From the IMG/VR virus record IMGVR_UViG_2703719355_000019: 33,139 nt of DNA; one strand, 5' to 3'. The translations under genes were made by a program, and so were the position numbers. This DNA is from a virus. Taxonomy: Duplodnaviria; Heunggongvirae; Uroviricota; Caudoviricetes. The notes beneath the pieces are model-generated. The model was not told the DNA's origin and ran no database searches. It worked only from the letters and a program-made list of their open reading frames with translations. Shown here piece by piece: positions 19,371-25,958 of the stretch; position 1 is the stretch's first letter, and the number at the start of each line of letters is the position of its first letter.

Positions 19371-21029
19371 TTACCATCCTCCTGAACCAAAACGCCCGCC
19401 ACGGTCACGCCCGGTGCTGCGTGGGGTGTGTATCTGAAATTTTGCGCTGCGCGAAACCGCCAGCGTCCACAGCATGTGCAGACAGTCAGGGCCATCATCG
19501 TGGTCGGCTTTGGGGTAGTGGCGCAGCTGGTCAATCAGTGTCTGATGTGTGTGACTGATGCGGATCAGGCCGTTGGCCATATGCGGCTGAAGGGATTCGA
19601 TACGCAGCGCCTTATCCTCCAGCGGGATGACCGGCAGCGCCGGAACCGGTACGCCCAGCGCCGCCGAACGCTCAACCAGCACGGTACGCAGAAACTCCTG
19701 AAACTGGACGGACTCAAACGACCAGCACAGGCAGTGATATTCCCGCTGATACTTAATCACGTCTTCGATAAGTTTATTCGGCAGACGTCGGCGGATATCG
19801 GCTTCAACCACATCCAGAATGCCGGTAAAGCGGTTAAAGCCCCCCACGAGAATGGCCGACGGGTCGCGGTTTTTGTTTTTCTTCCCGAGGCTGGGGTCAA
19901 CAGCACCATAAAACACCCATTCATCAAGACGGTTAACCCAGAATTTAATGCAGCCCGCAAACAGCGCGTCTTCACCGCTGACCGGGTCGTTCTGGTATTC
20001 AGAATCAAAAGTGTCATGACCGTCACGGACACGGATTTTCATCAGCGCCAGCAGGGGGCGCGCCGCCCATGACACCACTGACCCGGCGAGCATATCGGCT
20101 TCGTTCTGCTGATAAAGTGCCTCCGCCGCTTCCGGCTGTTTGTTGCGGATGAGTTCTTCCCACTCGTCCCACAGTTTCATGTTGGCAGGCCACTGAATAA
20201 CGGCCTTAAAGCGGGCCGTTTTCCACATCGGGTTATTCAGCGTGCGCGACAGTACGGAGTCGTAATGCAGGATGGTTCCGATATAAATAATATCGGTTTT
20301 ACCGCCAGCCTCACCCAGCGGCATCACGGTTTTGGTGAGCCAGTCATGCAGCTTGTCGCGCTGCTCCGGGTTACGCACCATCTCGTCGTTCTCGATGTCG
20401 TCGAGGATGACCAGGTCAGGACGGTACGGACCGTGGCGCAGACCACGCAGTTTTTTACCACTACCGGCAACGGTCACCTTGATATTGTTGGCCGTGACAA
20501 TAGTCCCCATACGCCAGACGCGACCCTGCCCGCACACCTCCGGGAAATCGTTTTTTAAACGGGGGTTAAATTCCAGTTCAGCCTTGATGGCTTCCAGCAT
20601 CGGATAAGCCTGGTCGATACTGTCCATAATGATGACCGGGTAATGTTTAATGGCCCGGATAATGTTCCACAGGGTAAACAGCTGCGTCACCAGCGTGGAT
20701 TTTGCTTCACCACGGGGCGCGGCGATGGCGTCGTTCTCCGGGTCCGGGCTTGCCACAACCTGTGGCAGACGGGTGAACAGGTATTTATGCAGCTCGCTTT
20801 TTGCCGGGTTGCGGACGTAGTGCGGGAAATAGTTTTCGACAAAATAATCGTAGCCCGTCACCGGGTCACAGACTGCCGCCCGGCGGGCCTGTGTGGCCTG
20901 CGGGTTTACATCGAACCCCAGACATTCAGCCTCAATGGTCTGGCGGAGGTTGGCGATGTATTCCTGTAAGCTTCTCTGAAACTCTTTAATGGAAAGTTTA
21001 CGTTTTGCCACGTCACACCTGGTATACAA
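19371..21029 (-). CDS. terminase large subunit (Mu gp28-like)
   Basis: 552-aa ORF; track start is TTG at 21029, in-frame GTG at 21011 is an alternative. Confidence 0.9.
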   Translation of the reverse strand: MYTRCDVAKRKLSIKEFQRSLQEYIANLRQTIEAECLGFDVNPQATQARRAAVCDPVTGYDYFVENYFPHYVRNPAKSELHKYLFTRLPQVVASPDPENDAIAAPRGEAKSTLVTQLFTLWNIIRAIKHYPVIIMDSIDQAYPMLEAIKAELEFNPRLKNDFPEVCGQGRVWRMGTIVTANNIKVTVAGSGKKLRGLRHGPYRPDLVILDDIENDEMVRNPEQRDKLHDWLTKTVMPLGEAGGKTDIIYIGTILHYDSVLSRTLNNPMWKTARFKAVIQWPANMKLWDEWEELIRNKQPEAAEALYQQNEADMLAGSVVSWAARPLLALMKIRVRDGHDTFDSEYQNDPVSGEDALFAGCIKFWVNRLDEWVFYGAVDPSLGKKNKNRDPSAILVGGFNRFTGILDVVEADIRRRLPNKLIEDVIKYQREYHCLCWSFESVQFQEFLRTVLVERSAALGVPVPALPVIPLEDKALRIESLQPHMANGLIRISHTHQTLIDQLRHYPKADHDDGPDCLHMLWTLAVSRSAKFQIHTPRSTGRDRGGRFGSGGW

Positions 21030-21063
21030 ATATCAGACGGCCCGGAAAACCGGGCCGCTGTGG

Positions 21064-21564
21064 TTAACTGAAATTATCCTCAAGCTCTTTAGCGAAGCCT
21101 TCGAGCACCTCAAGGAACGGGGCATACTGTGCCGGGTGACGCTCCTTGATGAACGCACCGAGCCGCTGCACCACTTCCAGTGCCGTGGCGAGCCGGTCGG
21201 TTTCCGGCAGGATTTTTTTGCTGCTGGCCACCGCCTTACTGAGACTGTCAGACAGACTCGCCAGCAGTTCGACGGACTCCTGCGGCGGGATGTCCGGGTT
21301 CTGGTTCAGCCGTTCAAGCGTCGTCTGACACTTCACCACCAGACTGATAAGTACGGTGCGGGCGACACTTTCCAACCCGTCACCGGCGAGCGCGTGCGCG
21401 GCCCGCAGCTTGTCCCAGTCGTCGCCGTTCTTCATCGCCTGCGTTTTCCAGCGCCGCGCGGTATCGTGCGGCACGGCGTACTTCATGGCGACGATATCCA
21501 GCGGAAGCTGGTCAAAAATGTACCCGTTACGGACTTTGTCCCTGATATCCTGTGACCACGCCAT
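21064..21564 (-). CDS. terminase small subunit-like protein (Mu gp27-like, DUF1804-like)
   Basis: 166-aa ORF immediately upstream of the large terminase. Confidence 0.7.
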   Translation of the reverse strand: MAWSQDIRDKVRNGYIFDQLPLDIVAMKYAVPHDTARRWKTQAMKNGDDWDKLRAAHALAGDGLESVARTVLISLVVKCQTTLERLNQNPDIPPQESVELLASLSDSLSKAVASSKKILPETDRLATALEVVQRLGAFIKERHPAQYAPFLEVLEGFAKELEDNFS

Positions 21565-21770
21565 TAAGTGTCCTTCTGAGCCTGTTCAATCCTGCGCTGA
21601 ACTTCGTCGGGATTTTCAAGAACGAACACGTTTTTCCCGGTATCCAGTTCAATGACTGTGCCATCATGTGTACCGTACTGACGGTAAAAATGGGTGATGC
21701 GTTCAGCGAGCACCATGACAGCGCCAGCACCTCCTGAACCTGTGTATTCTGTAAATCTGATAATGCTCAC
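21564..21770 (-). CDS. hypothetical small protein (68 aa)
   Basis: ORF between lysis cassette and terminase genes. Confidence 0.5.
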   Translation of the reverse strand: MSIIRFTEYTGSGGAGAVMVLAERITHFYRQYGTHDGTVIELDTGKNVFVLENPDEVQRRIEQAQKDT

Positions 21771-21790
21771 TGTGTCAGACCTTCAAAAAA

Positions 21791-21973
21791 TCAGTTCTGC
21801 GAACACTGTCGGATACCGTCAATAATCCGGCAGACCTGCGCCGCCGCGTCAAACAACTGGCCCGCTCTGTTAATGTCTGTGCATCCCACCGGAAGCAACA
21901 TCACCAGAAACAGGGCCAGAACACAGCGAGCGGCTTTACATGGCGTTCTGTGTGTCCAGTGCTGACGCGTCAT
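21791..21973 (-). CDS. small secreted/lipoprotein-like protein, possible spanin component
   Basis: 60-aa ORF; ATG overlaps the endolysin stop (ATGA); basic N-region, hydrophobic core LALFLVMLLPVGC, three further Cys. Confidence 0.5.
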   Translation of the reverse strand: MTRQHWTHRTPCKAARCVLALFLVMLLPVGCTDINRAGQLFDAAAQVCRIIDGIRQCSQN

Positions 21974-22515
21974 ACCGCCACGCGCTCCTTCAGCCAGCCA
22001 TAAACAAACGATTCGTTAGCCTCGCGTTTCTCTGCCAGCTCCAGATAGCGGTCACCCTGCGTGCAGTTCAGGGCTGTCAGCATTACCCGTTCACCGTCCT
22101 GACCGCGATTATTCAGGAAGGCGCGCAATGCGCTGATGGTACGAGGCCCGATGCGTCCGTCTGCGTCCATATCCGGGTACAGCCTGCCGCGCAGATTGAA
22201 CACATTCAGCCAGCGCTGAAGCATTCTGGACGCCACGGTTGGCCCCATATTCACACCGGTATCACACAGCTCTGCGGCAATATCAGGGGATAATGCGGCG
22301 ACCTGGTCAAATCGCGGGCCATACCAGTAATCAGCTTCAAGGATGTCCAGCGCCTGTTCACGGGTTAAATCGCGCATATCGCCACGGTATCCGTGGGCGC
22401 GGGCGACTTTTTCCGTAATGCCCCATTTGGTCGGGCCGCCCTTATCATCCGGGTGATTGACGTAACCGCCTTCTTTGCCCAGAACTTCATCAAAAATTTC
22501 ATCTTTTGATTTCAT
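21970..22515 (-). CDS. endolysin, GH108-type N-terminal domain with peptidoglycan-binding C-terminal domain
   Basis: 181-aa ORF; N-terminal GKEGGYVNHPDDKGGPTKWGIT motif characteristic of GH108-type lysins. Confidence 0.85.
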   Translation of the reverse strand: MKSKDEIFDEVLGKEGGYVNHPDDKGGPTKWGITEKVARAHGYRGDMRDLTREQALDILEADYWYGPRFDQVAALSPDIAAELCDTGVNMGPTVASRMLQRWLNVFNLRGRLYPDMDADGRIGPRTISALRAFLNNRGQDGERVMLTALNCTQGDRYLELAEKREANESFVYGWLKERVAV

Positions 22516-22795
22516 GTGGATGCCTCAGTAACGAAAGAATTTTTGACAAATTCCCGTGCGCCCACACGATAAGCGCACAGAAAACCAGATTCAGCGCCAC
22601 AACCAGCCAGCTGGAGTGCGTGTATGTACCGGACAGCCAGCGGAACGGGATGATGATGTAGCCGAGCATCAGCCAGTACGCCAGCCAGGTAATCATCGGT
22701 TTATGCGCCGCACCGTGGCGGCGATACACAAACAACCCCAATACAATGGCGAGACACAGCCAGACGTTCACGATACCGGCAAGGCTACTTTCCAT
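22499..22795 (-). CDS. membrane protein with three predicted TM helices (holin/antiholin candidate)
   Basis: Start at ATG 22795, preceded by GGAGG with an 8-nt spacer; track start is GTG at 22801; three hydrophobic segments. Confidence 0.6.
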   Translation of the reverse strand: MESSLAGIVNVWLCLAIVLGLFVYRRHGAAHKPMITWLAYWLMLGYIIIPFRWLSGTYTHSSWLVVALNLVFCALIVWAHGNLSKILSLLRHPHEIKR

Positions 22796-23177
22796 TTCCA
22801 CCCCCTCCGCCGCGCAGTCTGGAAAACAGGCCGAACAGCGATGAAATTTCCTGTTGATAAAGAAAGGTCAGTATCTTGATGGATAACGCCGAGACACCGA
22901 CCGCACACAATGCATCGAGCGGCTTGTCGTTGTAATGGGTCAGCCACTGCATCAGTGACGCAGCCACGCCAGCCCCCAGAACGCCAACCACAAACGCGAC
23001 GAGCAGGTGAATAGCCATTCGCCATACCGGGATTTCTTTCTGCTGCGTGACAACAAAAAGCGCCCCGGCAAACGCGCCCACCACGACTCCGAAATCGGTA
23101 TTGGTGAGAAGACCAAACACACTGGCACCACCGATGGTGACTGCCACAGCTCCGCCGCCTGATAAGGGTTCAGACAT
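22785..23177 (-). CDS. holin-like membrane protein
   Basis: Start at ATG 23177, preceded by GGAG with a 7-nt spacer; Gly/Ala-rich hydrophobic helices; first gene of the lysis cassette. Confidence 0.6.
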   Translation of the reverse strand: MSEPLSGGGAVAVTIGGASVFGLLTNTDFGVVVGAFAGALFVVTQQKEIPVWRMAIHLLVAFVVGVLGAGVAASLMQWLTHYNDKPLDALCAVGVSALSIKILTFLYQQEISSLFGLFSRLRGGGGGNGK

Positions 23178-23359
23178 GAGTTTCTCCTGTAAATCTGAGC
23201 CACTGACGGCCCGTAAATAACACCCTGTCAAAGGCACAAAAGCCTTTTGCAGGGCGCTATCCCTTAAGGTGCCTTGTGGTCTGAGTGGACAGGGTAAACG
23301 GTCTGGTGTGGTGGGTACTGCTGGGGGTGTTCAGCACCCCGCGGCAGCGGGGTGATAAA

Positions 23360-24161: not shown

Positions 24162-24189
24162 ATTATAGCCATACATGATCGCCTGTACA
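24162..24189 (-). promoter_or_regulatory. sigma70-like promoter upstream of the Mor-family gene
   Basis: On minus strand: -35 TGTACA (24189-24184), 16-nt spacer, -10 TATAAT (24167-24162); GGAG 8 nt upstream of the ATG at 24132. Confidence 0.4.
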
Positions 24190-24194
24190 GACCA

Positions 24195-24220
24195 CAAAAA
24201 AGCCCCTGCAAGGCAGAGGC
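24195..24220 (-). terminator. intrinsic terminator downstream of gemA-like gene
   Basis: Minus-strand RNA GCCUCUGC-CUU-GCAGGGGC (8-bp stem with one G-U pair) followed by U6; begins 8 nt after the gemA-like stop. Confidence 0.6.
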
Positions 24221-24227
24221 TGATTCT

Positions 24228-24891: not shown

Positions 24892-24958
24892 AATGACCAA
24901 AACATCACTTTTGGCAGACCAAAACACATGTTTTGGTCTGCGTTTGATTACTGTTCAA

Positions 24959-25177
24959 TCAACCCGCGTAATCGGGGCCGTGTTCCCATCTGGCATCGAG
25001 TATTTCCGTTCCATCTGTCCGGCATGGGTTATCAAGTGCCATTTTTCCGCACTCCCCATACTCGACATCGACAAAATCAGCAATATCATTGTCCGTTGCG
25101 TTATCAGGAACGTCGATTTCAACCGTTACGGTGATAGTTTTCATCAGGTTGTTACTCCGTGATTCAGAAAATTTCAT
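24959..25177 (-). CDS. small acidic protein (72 aa)
   Basis: ATG at 25177; alternative ATG at 25144 (MKTITVTVEIDV..); rich in Asp/Glu. Confidence 0.5.
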   Translation of the reverse strand: MKFSESRSNNLMKTITVTVEIDVPDNATDNDIADFVDVEYGECGKMALDNPCRTDGTEILDARWEHGPDYAG

Positions 25178-25185
25178 GCCGGGAC

Positions 25186-25596
25186 TCAGTATGTGAAATA
25201 GACAGTTGCCACACCGTTATAGTGGTCAAACGACACAGCGTTTACCTCATAACTGGCCGGGAGCTTCGAGCCAAGAACGTATCCGGGCCACGTTTTCCAT
25301 GGAATTTCTCTGCTCTCACTGTCGCCATATACCGTACATCCCAGTGAGCCTACAGCTTCATAAGAACGCTTACCGCACGTTATGAACCCCAGATGTTGCT
25401 TACTGCCCTTAACAGAAATCGGGAGAGCACTGGCTGATGCGTTAGCAGCGTCCCGCTCCTGTTGGCTTGCGATATTCGCAGAGTTTGCAGCAGCTACAGC
25501 AGCTGTGGTCGCAGCGGTAGATGCCACAATAACTGCTGAAGCCTGCGCCTGTTGGGTAATTGTCAGCAATGCCGCCACAAAAATCATTTTCTTCAC
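25186..25596 (-). CDS. secreted protein with N-terminal signal peptide
   Basis: GTG start at 25596 preceded by AGGAGG with a 6-nt spacer; MKKMIFVAALLTITQQAQA signal-like N-terminus; mature part contains two Cys. Confidence 0.7.
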   Translation of the reverse strand: MKKMIFVAALLTITQQAQASAVIVASTAATTAAVAAANSANIASQQERDAANASASALPISVKGSKQHLGFITCGKRSYEAVGSLGCTVYGDSESREIPWKTWPGYVLGSKLPASYEVNAVSFDHYNGVATVYFTY

Positions 25597-25608
25597 CTGG
25601 CACCTCCT

Positions 25609-25785
25609 TTACATACCGTGATTTTTCCTGCGGTTTTGCGCCGCGCTGGGCTTTTTGCAACAACTGTGCCCCATAACCCCTAAAAACCCTGTCAACCTCA
25701 ACCGTCTGTTACTAATCCTCACCCACCGCCAGACATCAAAGCCGTTTCTGCGAGCTAACAGAATTTTTGCCTTACGGTTTTTCAT
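25609..25785 (-). CDS. small basic protein B (58 aa), tandem paralogue
   Basis: ATG 25785-25783 overlaps the stop of paralogue A (ATGA); translation MKNRKAKILLARR..KKPSAAQNRRKNHGM. Confidence 0.45.
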   Translation of the reverse strand: MKNRKAKILLARRNGFDVWRWVRISNRRLRLTGFLGVMGHSCCKKPSAAQNRRKNHGM

Positions 25786-25958
25786 CGTACTGCGTACCCT
25801 TTATTCCGCCTGTTCTGTGACGCAGTAGGCTTACGCTTTGCGGCAAAAGCCACCTGACCAAATGGATGGAGTACCGCTATCTTATGGTTGCTAATAACCA
25901 GCTCCACCACACGCACAGGTCGCTGTAAAAGAAGGCGTTTTGCTTTACGGTTTTTCAT
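25782..25958 (-). CDS. small basic protein A (58 aa), tandem paralogue
   Basis: ATG 25958-25956 preceded by GAGGAAGG; translation MKNRKAKRLLLQR..KRKPTASQNRRNKGYAVR; the 112-aa track ORF 26120..25782 is an overextension. Confidence 0.5.
   Translation of the reverse strand: MKNRKAKRLLLQRPVRVVELVISNHKIAVLHPFGQVAFAAKRKPTASQNRRNKGYAVR

What the first reader, a model, noticed from the sequence alone, without database searches (positions are those of the whole stretch)
25186..25596. Signal-peptide protein encoded inside the phage early operon
A GTG start with a perfect AGGAGG SD is followed by a signal-peptide-like N-terminus (MKKMIFVAALLTITQQAQA), an Ala/Thr-rich linker and a two-Cys domain. A periplasmic protein made early from a prophage is the classic profile of a superinfection-exclusion or envelope-modifying moron. 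I did not recognise the family.
Basis: partly seen in the sequence, partly recalled or inferred. Interest (0 to 1): 0.55.

Follow-up and report, generated by a model that had tools for sequence, protein, structure and literature searches.

The report
Exported periplasmic phage accessory protein
This is a real gene for a small protein that a Mu-like E. coli prophage probably exports to the periplasm; it belongs to a tiny, uncharacterised family found in several unrelated enterobacterial phages, so it is a reasonable candidate for wet-lab study but not a surprising find.

Summary
On the minus strand, 25596-25186 encodes a 136-aa protein with a GTG start and AGGAGG 6 nt upstream. It has a Sec-type signal peptide (KK, short hydrophobic core, AQA/ASA), an Ala/Thr-rich linker and a C-terminal domain with two invariant cysteines. 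The gene is under purifying selection and matches phrog_8805 (unknown function) over its full length. Pfam, NCBIfam and PADLOC give nothing.

The window is a Mu-like prophage, and the gene sits in the accessory part of the early operon between DUF2786 and GemA. It abuts the upstream gene and has no promoter or terminator of its own, so it is an operon-embedded cassette and not an autonomous moron.

Homologues occur in P1-like phage-plasmids, the Avunavirus phage Av-05 and T1-like 45-kb phages, which points to a role in lytic growth. The family is tiny: 15 representatives among 1.84 billion proteins.

AlphaFold2 gives a confident small alpha/beta domain with no significant structural match. The only hint is weak resemblance to the enterobacterial periplasmic DUF1471 domain.

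My best guess is a periplasmic factor that acts on the host envelope during infection, as exclusion or protection. That function is inferred, not shown.

The parts
25603..25608 (-). Shine-Dalgarno AGGAGG, 6 nt upstream of the GTG start, directly after the TAA stop (25611-25609) of the upstream ORF
   Evidence: read directly from the sequence
25186..25596 (-). complete ORF, 136 codons plus stop, GTG start; member of phrog_8805
   Evidence: purifying selection
25540..25596 (-). residues 1-19, Sec-type signal peptide (MKK n-region, MIFVAALLTIT core, QQAQA c-region); cleavage after A19 (AQA|S) or A21 (ASA|V)
   Evidence: conserved n/h/c layout in all 27 family members; no lipobox cysteine and no twin arginine
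25423..25539 (-). residues 20-58, Ala/Thr/Ser/Gln-rich low-complexity linker that starts with the conserved hydrophobic VIV; replaced by a short Pro/polar linker in the T1-like phage homologues
   Evidence: position-independent sum of the Hessa hydrophobicity values over 19 residues is +2.8 or more, so a membrane span is unlikely
25189..25422 (-). residues 59-136, conserved globular domain (strand x4, helix, strand x2) with motifs GF[IV]TCG, SLGC, IPW..PGY.LG..LPASY.V..[IV]SFD.YN..ATVYF.Y
   Evidence: AlphaFold2 mean pLDDT 88.7, pTM 0.76; alignments; residues 100-136 have pN/pS 0-0.11
25375..25377 (-). Cys74 codon (TGC), invariant in the family
25336..25338 (-). Cys87 codon (TGT), invariant; presumed disulfide partner of Cys74 across a 12-residue beta-hairpin
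   Evidence: the disulfide itself is inferred

Best explanation
The gene encodes a small soluble periplasmic protein.

Shown or strongly indicated:
- It is a real, selected gene.
- Its N-terminus has every rule-based feature of a Sec signal peptide cleaved by signal peptidase I. The mature protein would be about 12 kDa.
- The mature protein has a variable spacer and a conserved 78-residue alpha/beta domain with two invariant cysteines.
- It is a single-gene cassette embedded in operons of unrelated enterobacterial phages: Mu-like prophages, P1-like phage-plasmids, an Avunavirus and T1-like phages.
- In this prophage it is co-transcribed with the early (transposition/accessory) operon.

Inferred:
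- The two cysteines form a DsbA-made disulfide that staples a beta-hairpin.
- The protein is made during lytic development, not in the resting lysogen.
- It binds a periplasmic or envelope component of the host that is common to Enterobacteriaceae.

Most likely role, as a guess: it protects the infected cell's envelope or blocks a post-adsorption step of secondary infection, as T4 Spackle/Imm or P1 Sim do. It is less likely to mask one particular receptor, because the carrier phages are of very different morphological and genomic types and so are unlikely to share one receptor; their receptors were not examined here.

My confidence that the protein is exported and periplasmic is about 0.85. 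My confidence in the exclusion/protection role specifically is about 0.3. The single confidence value given for this explanation (0.35) refers to the whole statement, including the guessed role.
For: - Gene, start and SD.
- Full-length match to phrog_8805. RefSeq CDS in a 99.8%-identical prophage.
- dN/dS 0.14-0.36, and 0-0.11 for residues 100-136.
- Signal-peptide layout and invariant Cys74/Cys87 in 27 sequences down to about 40% identity. Third-party notes 'signal peptide' and 'Prophage exported protein'.
- No hydrophobic span predicted in the mature part.
- Confident domain model, pLDDT 88.7.
- Mu-like context.
- No promoter or terminator of its own.
- Start overlapping or abutting the upstream gene in all other contexts.
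- Single-gene exchange: DNA similarity to Av-05 (78%) covers only window 25167-25609.
- Presence in Av-05 and in T1-like KLB16/KW1E, with no integrase annotated in KLB16.
- Found only in phages of Escherichia, Salmonella, Citrobacter, Klebsiella and Cronobacter.
- About 8% of complete E. coli genomes carry it (427 of 5426).
Against: - No experiment and no homology links the family to any exclusion or protection protein.
- PADLOC, Pfam and NCBIfam give nothing.
- No dedicated signal-peptide or topology predictor could be run.
- The Ala-rich segment after the signal peptide reaches a Kyte-Doolittle 19-residue mean of 1.7, which is borderline for a membrane span.
- In the T1-like phages the gene lies between the small and large terminase genes and not in an obviously early region, so 'early' is not a family-wide property.
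- Lytic-only expression is inferred from Mu and has not been measured for this prophage.
Confidence: 0.35

Rival explanations
1. It is a phage-borne, divergent relative of the enterobacterial DUF1471 (YhcN/BhsA/McbA/SrfN/YdgH) periplasmic domain. It would then alter envelope properties or envelope-stress signalling (surface hydrophobicity, permeability, protease or Rcs-type sensing) to favour phage development, and would not exclude other phages.
For: - hhalign of the family domain against E. coli DUF1471 paralogues aligns the C-terminal hairpin (SY.V...ATVY with .Y.I...tA.iY) with P 0.003-0.006. That score exceeds all 200 column-shuffled controls.
- Both families are small, carry Sec signal peptides and are restricted to Enterobacteriaceae (PMC4092069).
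- The order of elements, strand - helix - strand - strand, is the same in the C-terminal half.
Against: - hhalign probability is only 6.5-11% over 19 columns.
- No member hits Pfam PF07338 even at E 10.
- A profile search of PDB sequences does not find DUF1471 chains.
- None of the six E. coli DUF1471 paralogues aligned here has the two-Cys hairpin.
- Column shuffling destroys beta-strand periodicity, so the control may overstate significance.
- DUF1471 itself has no known biochemical mechanism.
Confidence: 0.25
2. It is a periplasmic enzyme inhibitor. The disulfide-constrained loop between Cys74 and Cys87, or the variable loop just after it, would plug the active site of a peptidoglycan hydrolase, nuclease or protease. 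The target could be the tail lysozyme of a superinfecting phage (as for T4 Spackle) or a host enzyme (as for Ivy).
For: - Periplasmic location and a conserved Cys-x12-Cys hairpin.
- The segments around the hairpin (residues 55-68 and 88-98) are the most variable among close homologues, with pN/pS 0.3-0.57, while the rest of the domain is nearly frozen. A specificity loop on a constant scaffold would show this pattern.
- The Ivy disulfide loop and Spackle precedents are from my own knowledge, not tested here.
Against: - No sequence or fold similarity to Ivy, PliC/MliC, PliG or Spackle appears in any search.
- The gene occurs with different endolysin types, GH108 in the window and M15 peptidase in STEC313. 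It is therefore not tied to the phage's own lysin.
Confidence: 0.12
3. The N-terminus is not cleaved. The signal-like segment plus the weakly hydrophobic Ala/Thr/Ser-rich stretch would act as a membrane tether or releasable SAR-like anchor. The protein would then regulate lysis timing, like the T4 RI antiholin, or act on an inner-membrane partner.
For: - The Ala/Thr/Ser-rich composition of residues 20-43 resembles signal-anchor-release segments, and the Kyte-Doolittle 19-residue mean peaks at 1.7.
- In the T1-like phages the next gene encodes a conserved 60-70-aa protein with two hydrophobic segments and a charged C-terminus, which is holin-like in shape.
Against: - The short-form homologues lack the Ala-rich stretch entirely but keep the signal peptide and the domain.
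- The position-independent sum of the Hessa hydrophobicity values for the Ala-rich stretch is +1.9 to +5.6 kcal/mol, so insertion is unfavourable.
- KLB16 has a complete holin-endolysin-spanin cassette more than 10 kb away.
- In the window the holins and endolysin lie 2-3 kb downstream, beyond a terminator and the Mor-family gene.
Confidence: 0.08
4. It is an outer-membrane lipoprotein receptor blocker of the Cor/Llp type, or a virion component.
For: Only the general profile supports this: a small exported phage protein, present in T1-like phages, a group in which Cor-type receptor blockers are known (my own knowledge).
Against: - There is no lipobox. The window protein has no cysteine before residue 74, and the Cys at position 10 of some short forms is neither conserved nor preceded by a lipobox.
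- The only structural-protein hit is a PHROG 'major tail protein' match at E 0.16 in the low-complexity linker.
- The gene lies outside the structural modules in every genome seen.
Confidence: 0.03

Closest known systems
phrog_8805 (PHROGs v4 family, unknown function)
   Same: Full-length match, 136 of 136 profile positions, E 5.4e-83. This is the family itself.
   Different: None; the family simply carries no functional annotation.
DUF1471 / YhcN family (BhsA, McbA, YhcN, SrfN, YahO, YdgH; Pfam PF07338)
   Different: No Pfam hit and hhalign probability of 11% or less. The window protein carries about 25 extra residues with a two-Cys hairpin, and an N-terminal linker. It is phage-encoded rather than a chromosomal stress gene.
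T4 Spackle (gp61.3) and Imm; P1 Sim (superinfection-exclusion proteins acting in or at the periplasm)
   Same: Small proteins with export signals made by phages, acting after adsorption; Spackle and Imm are made early in lytic infection (own knowledge). The location and timing proposed here are the same.
   Different: No detectable sequence or fold similarity. No T4 or P1 reference genome appears among the five phage records that match, and no Spackle structure appears in the fold searches. The function here is untested.
Cor (T1, phi80, N15) and Llp (T5) receptor-blocking lipoproteins
   Same: Small exported phage proteins, and homologues of the window protein occur in T1-like phages.
   Different: Those are lipoproteins with a lipobox cysteine. 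This family has a signal peptidase I site and no lipobox.
Morons of temperate phages (autonomous promoter-gene-terminator units expressed from the prophage)
   Same: An accessory, horizontally exchanged single gene in a variable region.
   Different: No promoter or terminator of its own, and closely abutting or overlapping the upstream gene. It is also present in phages that appear to be virulent.

Membership tests
phrog_8805 | significant full-length match to the family profile | tested here: met
   E 5.4e-83, residues 1-136 on profile positions 1-136
Sec / signal peptidase I exported proteins | positively charged n-region, hydrophobic h-region of about 7-15 residues, polar c-region with small residues at -3 and -1 | tested here: met
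   MKK / MIFVAALLTIT / QQAQA|S (or ASA|V). The same layout is present in all 27 aligned members. The test is rule-based only; SignalP was not available.
Sec / signal peptidase I exported proteins | experimental cleavage and periplasmic location | not testable with these tools
   needs fusions, fractionation or N-terminal mass spectrometry
Bacterial lipoproteins (Cor/Llp-type blockers) | lipobox [LVI][ASTVI][GAS]C at the end of the signal peptide | tested here: not met
   no Cys before residue 74 in the window protein, and no conserved lipobox in the family
Moron (autonomous prophage transcription unit) | own promoter and terminator flanking the gene | tested here: not met
   no sigma-70-like site and no terminator-like hairpin on the minus strand next to the gene (the nearest such sites are over 350 bp away, inside or beyond other ORFs). 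The SD directly follows the upstream stop codon, and an 8-nt gap separates the gene from the next ORF.
Moron (autonomous prophage transcription unit) | expression in the lysogen | not testable with these tools
   needs transcript data. Position inside a Mu-type early operon argues against it by analogy with Mu.
DUF1471 / YhcN (PF07338) | match to the Pfam model above its gathering score | tested here: not met
   no hit even at E 10 for the window protein or any of 27 members
DUF1471 / YhcN (PF07338) | profile-profile homology | tested here: inconclusive
   hhalign probability 6.5-11%, P 0.003-0.006, 19 columns; above 200/200 column shuffles
DUF1471 / YhcN (PF07338) | shared fold (four-stranded sheet, order 2-4-3-1, with a helix; PMC4092069) | tested here: inconclusive
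Superinfection-exclusion proteins | expression reduces infection by the same or other phages at or after adsorption | not testable with these tools
   a functional definition; there is no homology to any PADLOC model
Lpp/OprI alanine-zipper coiled coil (for the linker) | match to NF040598 / PF11839 above cut-off | tested here: not met
   only one distant member (P0072) scores, at 16.8 bits against a cut-off of 43. One member hits PF11839 at E 0.29. The window protein gives no hit.

The most novel reading that the evidence does not exclude
The family could be a previously unrecognised class of phage periplasmic effector. It would be a disulfide-stapled offshoot of the enterobacterial DUF1471/RcsF-like fold, used by temperate and probably virulent phages alike during lytic growth to manipulate a conserved envelope component. 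Examples would be blocking DNA passage of competitors through the periplasm, or silencing an envelope-stress sensor. If so, it would also give the first mechanistic handle on what DUF1471-type domains bind.
Probability: 0.15. Interest if true: 0.6.

Novelty: new member of a known kind. Interest (0 to 1): 0.3.

Why it matters
Small exported phage proteins are the usual agents of superinfection exclusion and envelope remodelling, and few families have been characterised. This one is compact, with a 78-residue domain that models confidently. About 8% of complete E. coli genomes carry it. It is shared by four unrelated phage lineages, some of them probably virulent, which suggests a host-directed function useful in any lytic cycle. 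That makes it a cheap and well-defined target for a plasmid-expression screen against a coliphage panel. A possible distant link to DUF1471 could also shed light on that long-standing family of unknown function. Nothing found here shows that the biology is unusual.

Tried and rejected
- Pfam, NCBIfam and PADLOC scans of the protein and of distant members found no family.
- A profile search of PDB sequences gave only a chance FtsI match at E 1.5.
- AlphaFold2 on the full-length protein was unusable (pLDDT 48). Restricting it to residues 59-136 worked.
- Lipoprotein reading: rejected, no lipobox.
- Membrane-span reading of the Ala-rich stretch: unlikely.
- Lysis-cassette membership: rejected, the lysis genes are elsewhere.
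- A conserved partner gene: none across lineages. The downstream small two-span membrane protein is conserved only within the T1-like group.
- C-terminal aromatic motif (YF.Y-COOH) as a PDZ or outer-membrane-protein-like signal: weakened, because three members carry 1-4 extra C-terminal residues.
- Alanine-zipper coiled coil for the linker: only sub-threshold hits in one distant member.
- A homologue in Mu itself: none. None of the N-terminal sequences of Mu's accessory early proteins looks like an export signal.
- Plus-strand ORFs overlapping the gene (25159-25347, 25206-25385, 25382-25621): I treated these as spurious, because the homology and the dN/dS signal are all in the minus-strand frame.
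- Rfam on the whole window: nothing.
- Literature searches by accession, by PHROG id and by topic found no study of the family.
- Contigs for the most divergent members were too short to give context.

Full report
**1. The observation**

The feature is on the minus strand. Reading the reverse complement gives ...GGTATG TAA AGGAGG TGCCAG GTG AAG AAA ATG.... So:
- GTG start at 25596-25594;
- AGGAGG at 25608-25603, with a 6-nt spacer;
- the TAA stop of the upstream ORF (25785-25609) directly before the SD.

Residues 1-19 are MKKMIFVAALLTITQQAQA. Residues 20-47 contain 11 Ala, 4 Ser and 3 Thr. Cys74 and Cys87 are the only cysteines.

**2. It is a real gene**

- RefSeq annotates the same 136-aa CDS (WP_053896997.1) in a 99.8%-identical prophage of E. 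coli STEC313.
- The protein matches phrog_8805 over the whole profile at E 5e-83.
- The word-indexed search returned 56 clusters, nearly all 70-98% identical.
- Nei-Gojobori estimates give dN/dS of 0.36 against phage Av-05 and 0.16 against a phage-plasmid copy. Between two short-form homologues the value is 0.14.
- Split by region, residues 100-136 have pN/pS of 0-0.11. The linker and the N-terminal half of the domain are looser, at 0.3-0.86.

**3. Genomic setting**

The window is a Mu-like prophage read right to left. In order:

| Coordinates | Gene or family |
|---|---|
| 32903-30861 | MuA-type transposase |
| 30842-29949 | MuB-type AAA ATPase |
| 29452-28808 | DUF3164 |
| 27312-26599 | DUF2786/DUF7168 |
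| between | several small ORFs |
| 25596-25186 | the target |
| 24740-24228 | GemA |
| 24132-23665 | Mor-family activator |
| 23237-22499 | two holins |
| 22515-21970 | GH108 endolysin |
| 21564-21064 | DUF1804 |
| from 21029 down | ORF that RefSeq calls terL in related prophages, then head and tail genes |

This corresponds to Mu's non-essential early region between B and gemA. None of the N-terminal sequences of Mu's proteins in that region looks like an export signal, and Mu has no homologue.

On the minus strand the scan finds no promoter-like site and no terminator-like hairpin next to the gene. The nearest convincing terminator is at 24221-24201, just after gemA. The gene is therefore embedded in the early operon. 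In Mu that operon is repressed in lysogens (established knowledge), so expression only after induction or infection is the expected pattern here. This is an inference.

Other E. coli chromosomes carry the gene in the same slot of the same prophage lineage, but with different small neighbours.

**4. Distribution**

DNA similarity at 80% identity or more is present in 427 of 5426 complete E. coli genomes, with 232 places on chromosomes and 254 on plasmids. Other carriers:
- **Plasmids.** All 66 plasmids that match by tblastn are non-mobilizable and of about 85-110 kb, and the two examined carry phage-type genes. One has phd/doc, humD and hot and is therefore P1-like. In those two the gene lies among ead/Ea22-like, DUF551 and ASCH accessory genes.
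- **Avunavirus Av-05.** Among sequenced phages the gene is found in Av-05 (Vequintavirinae). Nucleotide similarity of 78% covers only window 25167-25609, that is, this gene alone.
- **45-kb phages KLB16, KLB22 and KW1E_UTAR.** Their gene order is T1-like, and I saw no integrase in KLB16's annotation. The gene lies upstream of the large terminase gene (between the small and large terminase genes in the related metagenomic contigs L013 and L015), far from the holin-endolysin-spanin cassette.

In every case the start codon overlaps or abuts the preceding gene.

An exhaustive HMMER profile search of 1.84 billion cluster representatives found only 15 proteins. Two of those are low-complexity artefacts and several are fragments. 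The family is thus small. Every host I could identify belongs to the Enterobacteriaceae.

**5. Anatomy of the family**

All members begin with one or two basic residues, a hydrophobic core and a c-region ending in A/V/S/T/G-x-A. None has a lipobox or a twin arginine.

Directly after that site every member has a hydrophobic tripeptide (VIV, VVV, VVI or AII). I cannot explain this.

The linker then differs between forms:
- Long forms, including the window, have 25-40 residues rich in Ala, Thr, Ser, Gln and Asn.
- Short forms, in the T1-like phages, have about 15-20 residues rich in Pro and polar residues.

The linker is therefore a spacer and the conserved unit is the C-terminal domain. Its motifs are K.[IL]GF[IV]TCG, S[LT][GA]C, [IV]P[WY]...PGY.LG..[LI]PASY.V..[IV][SA][FY]D.YN..ATVYF.Y. 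The two cysteines, separated by 12 residues in the window protein, are invariant.

The position-independent sum of the Hessa hydrophobicity values over the best 19-residue window of the mature part is +1.9 to +12 kcal/mol. No membrane span is expected, although the Kyte-Doolittle mean for residues 19-37 reaches 1.7, which is borderline.

**6. Structure**

AlphaFold2 on the full-length protein with 22 sequences failed (pLDDT 48). On residues 59-136 with 27 sequences it gave a confident model with mean pLDDT 88.7 and pTM 0.76; four of the five models agree. The elements, in full-length numbering, are strands 69-74, 80-82, 86-90 and 95-99, a helix 100-111, and strands 117-124 and 129-135. Cys74 ends the first strand and Cys87 lies at the start of the third, so a disulfide stapling the 80-82 hairpin is plausible. 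This is inferred; I could not inspect coordinates.

Fold searches:
- Foldseek against the PDB found nothing at E below 0.2.
- Foldseek against BFVD found only a 117-aa viral protein with 47% identity, presumably a family member.
- AFDB50 was unavailable.

**7. The DUF1471 lead**

To test the lead I collected six E. coli K-12 paralogues plus BhsA and its relatives and ran hhalign on the mature domains.
- The only alignment is the last hairpin, 19 columns, with P 0.003-0.006 and probability 6.5-11%.
- Its score of 17.6 exceeds all 200 column-shuffled controls (mean 9.1, sd 1.9).
- No member hits PF07338, even at E 10.

The link is therefore a lead and not a membership.

**8. What it most likely does**

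Well-supported steps: a Sec-exported, soluble periplasmic protein. It is exchanged as a single gene between unrelated enterobacterial phages, embedded in operons, and made in this prophage with the early lytic genes.

Inferred steps: a DsbA-dependent disulfide, and binding to a conserved host envelope component. I favour a host component over a particular receptor because the carrier phages are of very different types, so they are unlikely to share one receptor; I did not examine their receptors.

The known precedents for early, periplasmic phage proteins are exclusion and protection factors: T4 Spackle and Imm, and P1 Sim (own knowledge). That is my best guess, at roughly 0.3. The rivals are:
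- a DUF1471-like modulator of envelope properties or stress signalling (0.25);
- an enzyme inhibitor using the constrained loop (0.12), favoured by the variable segments that flank an otherwise frozen scaffold;
- an uncleaved or SAR-like tether regulating lysis (0.08), disfavoured by the short forms and by separate lysis cassettes;
- a lipoprotein blocker or virion protein (0.03), contradicted by the sequence.

**9. Verdict**

Its reading of an exported early phage protein is supported. The 'moron expressed from the prophage' element is not, and the exclusion function remains untested. The family is already catalogued (phrog_8805, RefSeq hypothetical proteins) but uncharacterised. I rate it a new member of a known kind, the small exported phage accessory proteins, with modest interest of 0.3.

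Noticed in passing
window 25609-25785 and 25782-25958 (minus strand): Two tandem paralogous ORFs of 58 aa (43% identical) encode small, very basic proteins of phrog_1380 (unknown function), directly upstream of the target. This ~340-bp stretch is about 87-94% identical in DNA to segments of P1, RCS47, Stx2 phages and phiV10, and a homologue lies two genes from the Av-05 copy of the target.
   Followed up: partly
window 24201-24221 and 24162-24189 (minus strand): A strong intrinsic-terminator-like hairpin (9 pairs, T-run) lies immediately after the GemA gene. It is followed by a promoter-like TGTACA-16-TATAAT just before the Mor-family gene (24132-23665). Here the early operon seems to end before the Mor-like activator, unlike the arrangement annotated in Mu.
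   Followed up: no
window 24914-24941: A perfect 12-bp stem with a 4-nt loop (GCAGACCAAAAC ACAT GTTTTGGTCTGC) overlaps the GTG start listed for ORF 24927-24613. It scores as a terminator on the plus strand only. It could instead be an RNA structure affecting translation of that ORF.
   Followed up: no
window 19371-23237 compared with L001 (STEC313 prophage): The almost identical prophage in STEC313 has an M15 metallopeptidase endolysin and an extra DNA methyltransferase gene between DUF1804 and terL. The window has a GH108/PG_binding_3 endolysin and no methyltransferase there. This shows cassette swapping in the lysis and packaging-proximal region.
   Followed up: partly
L003 5227-5442, L004 5222-5428, L013 10339-10527, L015 3916-4095: In the T1-like 45-kb phages the homologue is always followed by a 59-71-aa protein with two hydrophobic segments and a charged C-terminus. 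It is conserved only within that lineage and absent from the Mu-like, Av-05 and plasmid contexts. KLB16 also has a 57-aa exported two-Cys protein two genes further on.
   Followed up: partly
window residues 20-24 of the target (25525-25539) and all homologues: A hydrophobic tripeptide [VI][VI][VIA] directly after the predicted signal-peptidase site is conserved in both long and short forms, although the rest of the linker is not. Its role is unexplained.
   Followed up: no
window 24959-25177 (minus strand): The ORF just downstream of the target matches phrog_8773 only from its Met12. RefSeq annotates a 61-aa product in STEC313, so the real start is probably the ATG at 25144. The protein is acidic with two Cys and has unknown function.
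   Followed up: no
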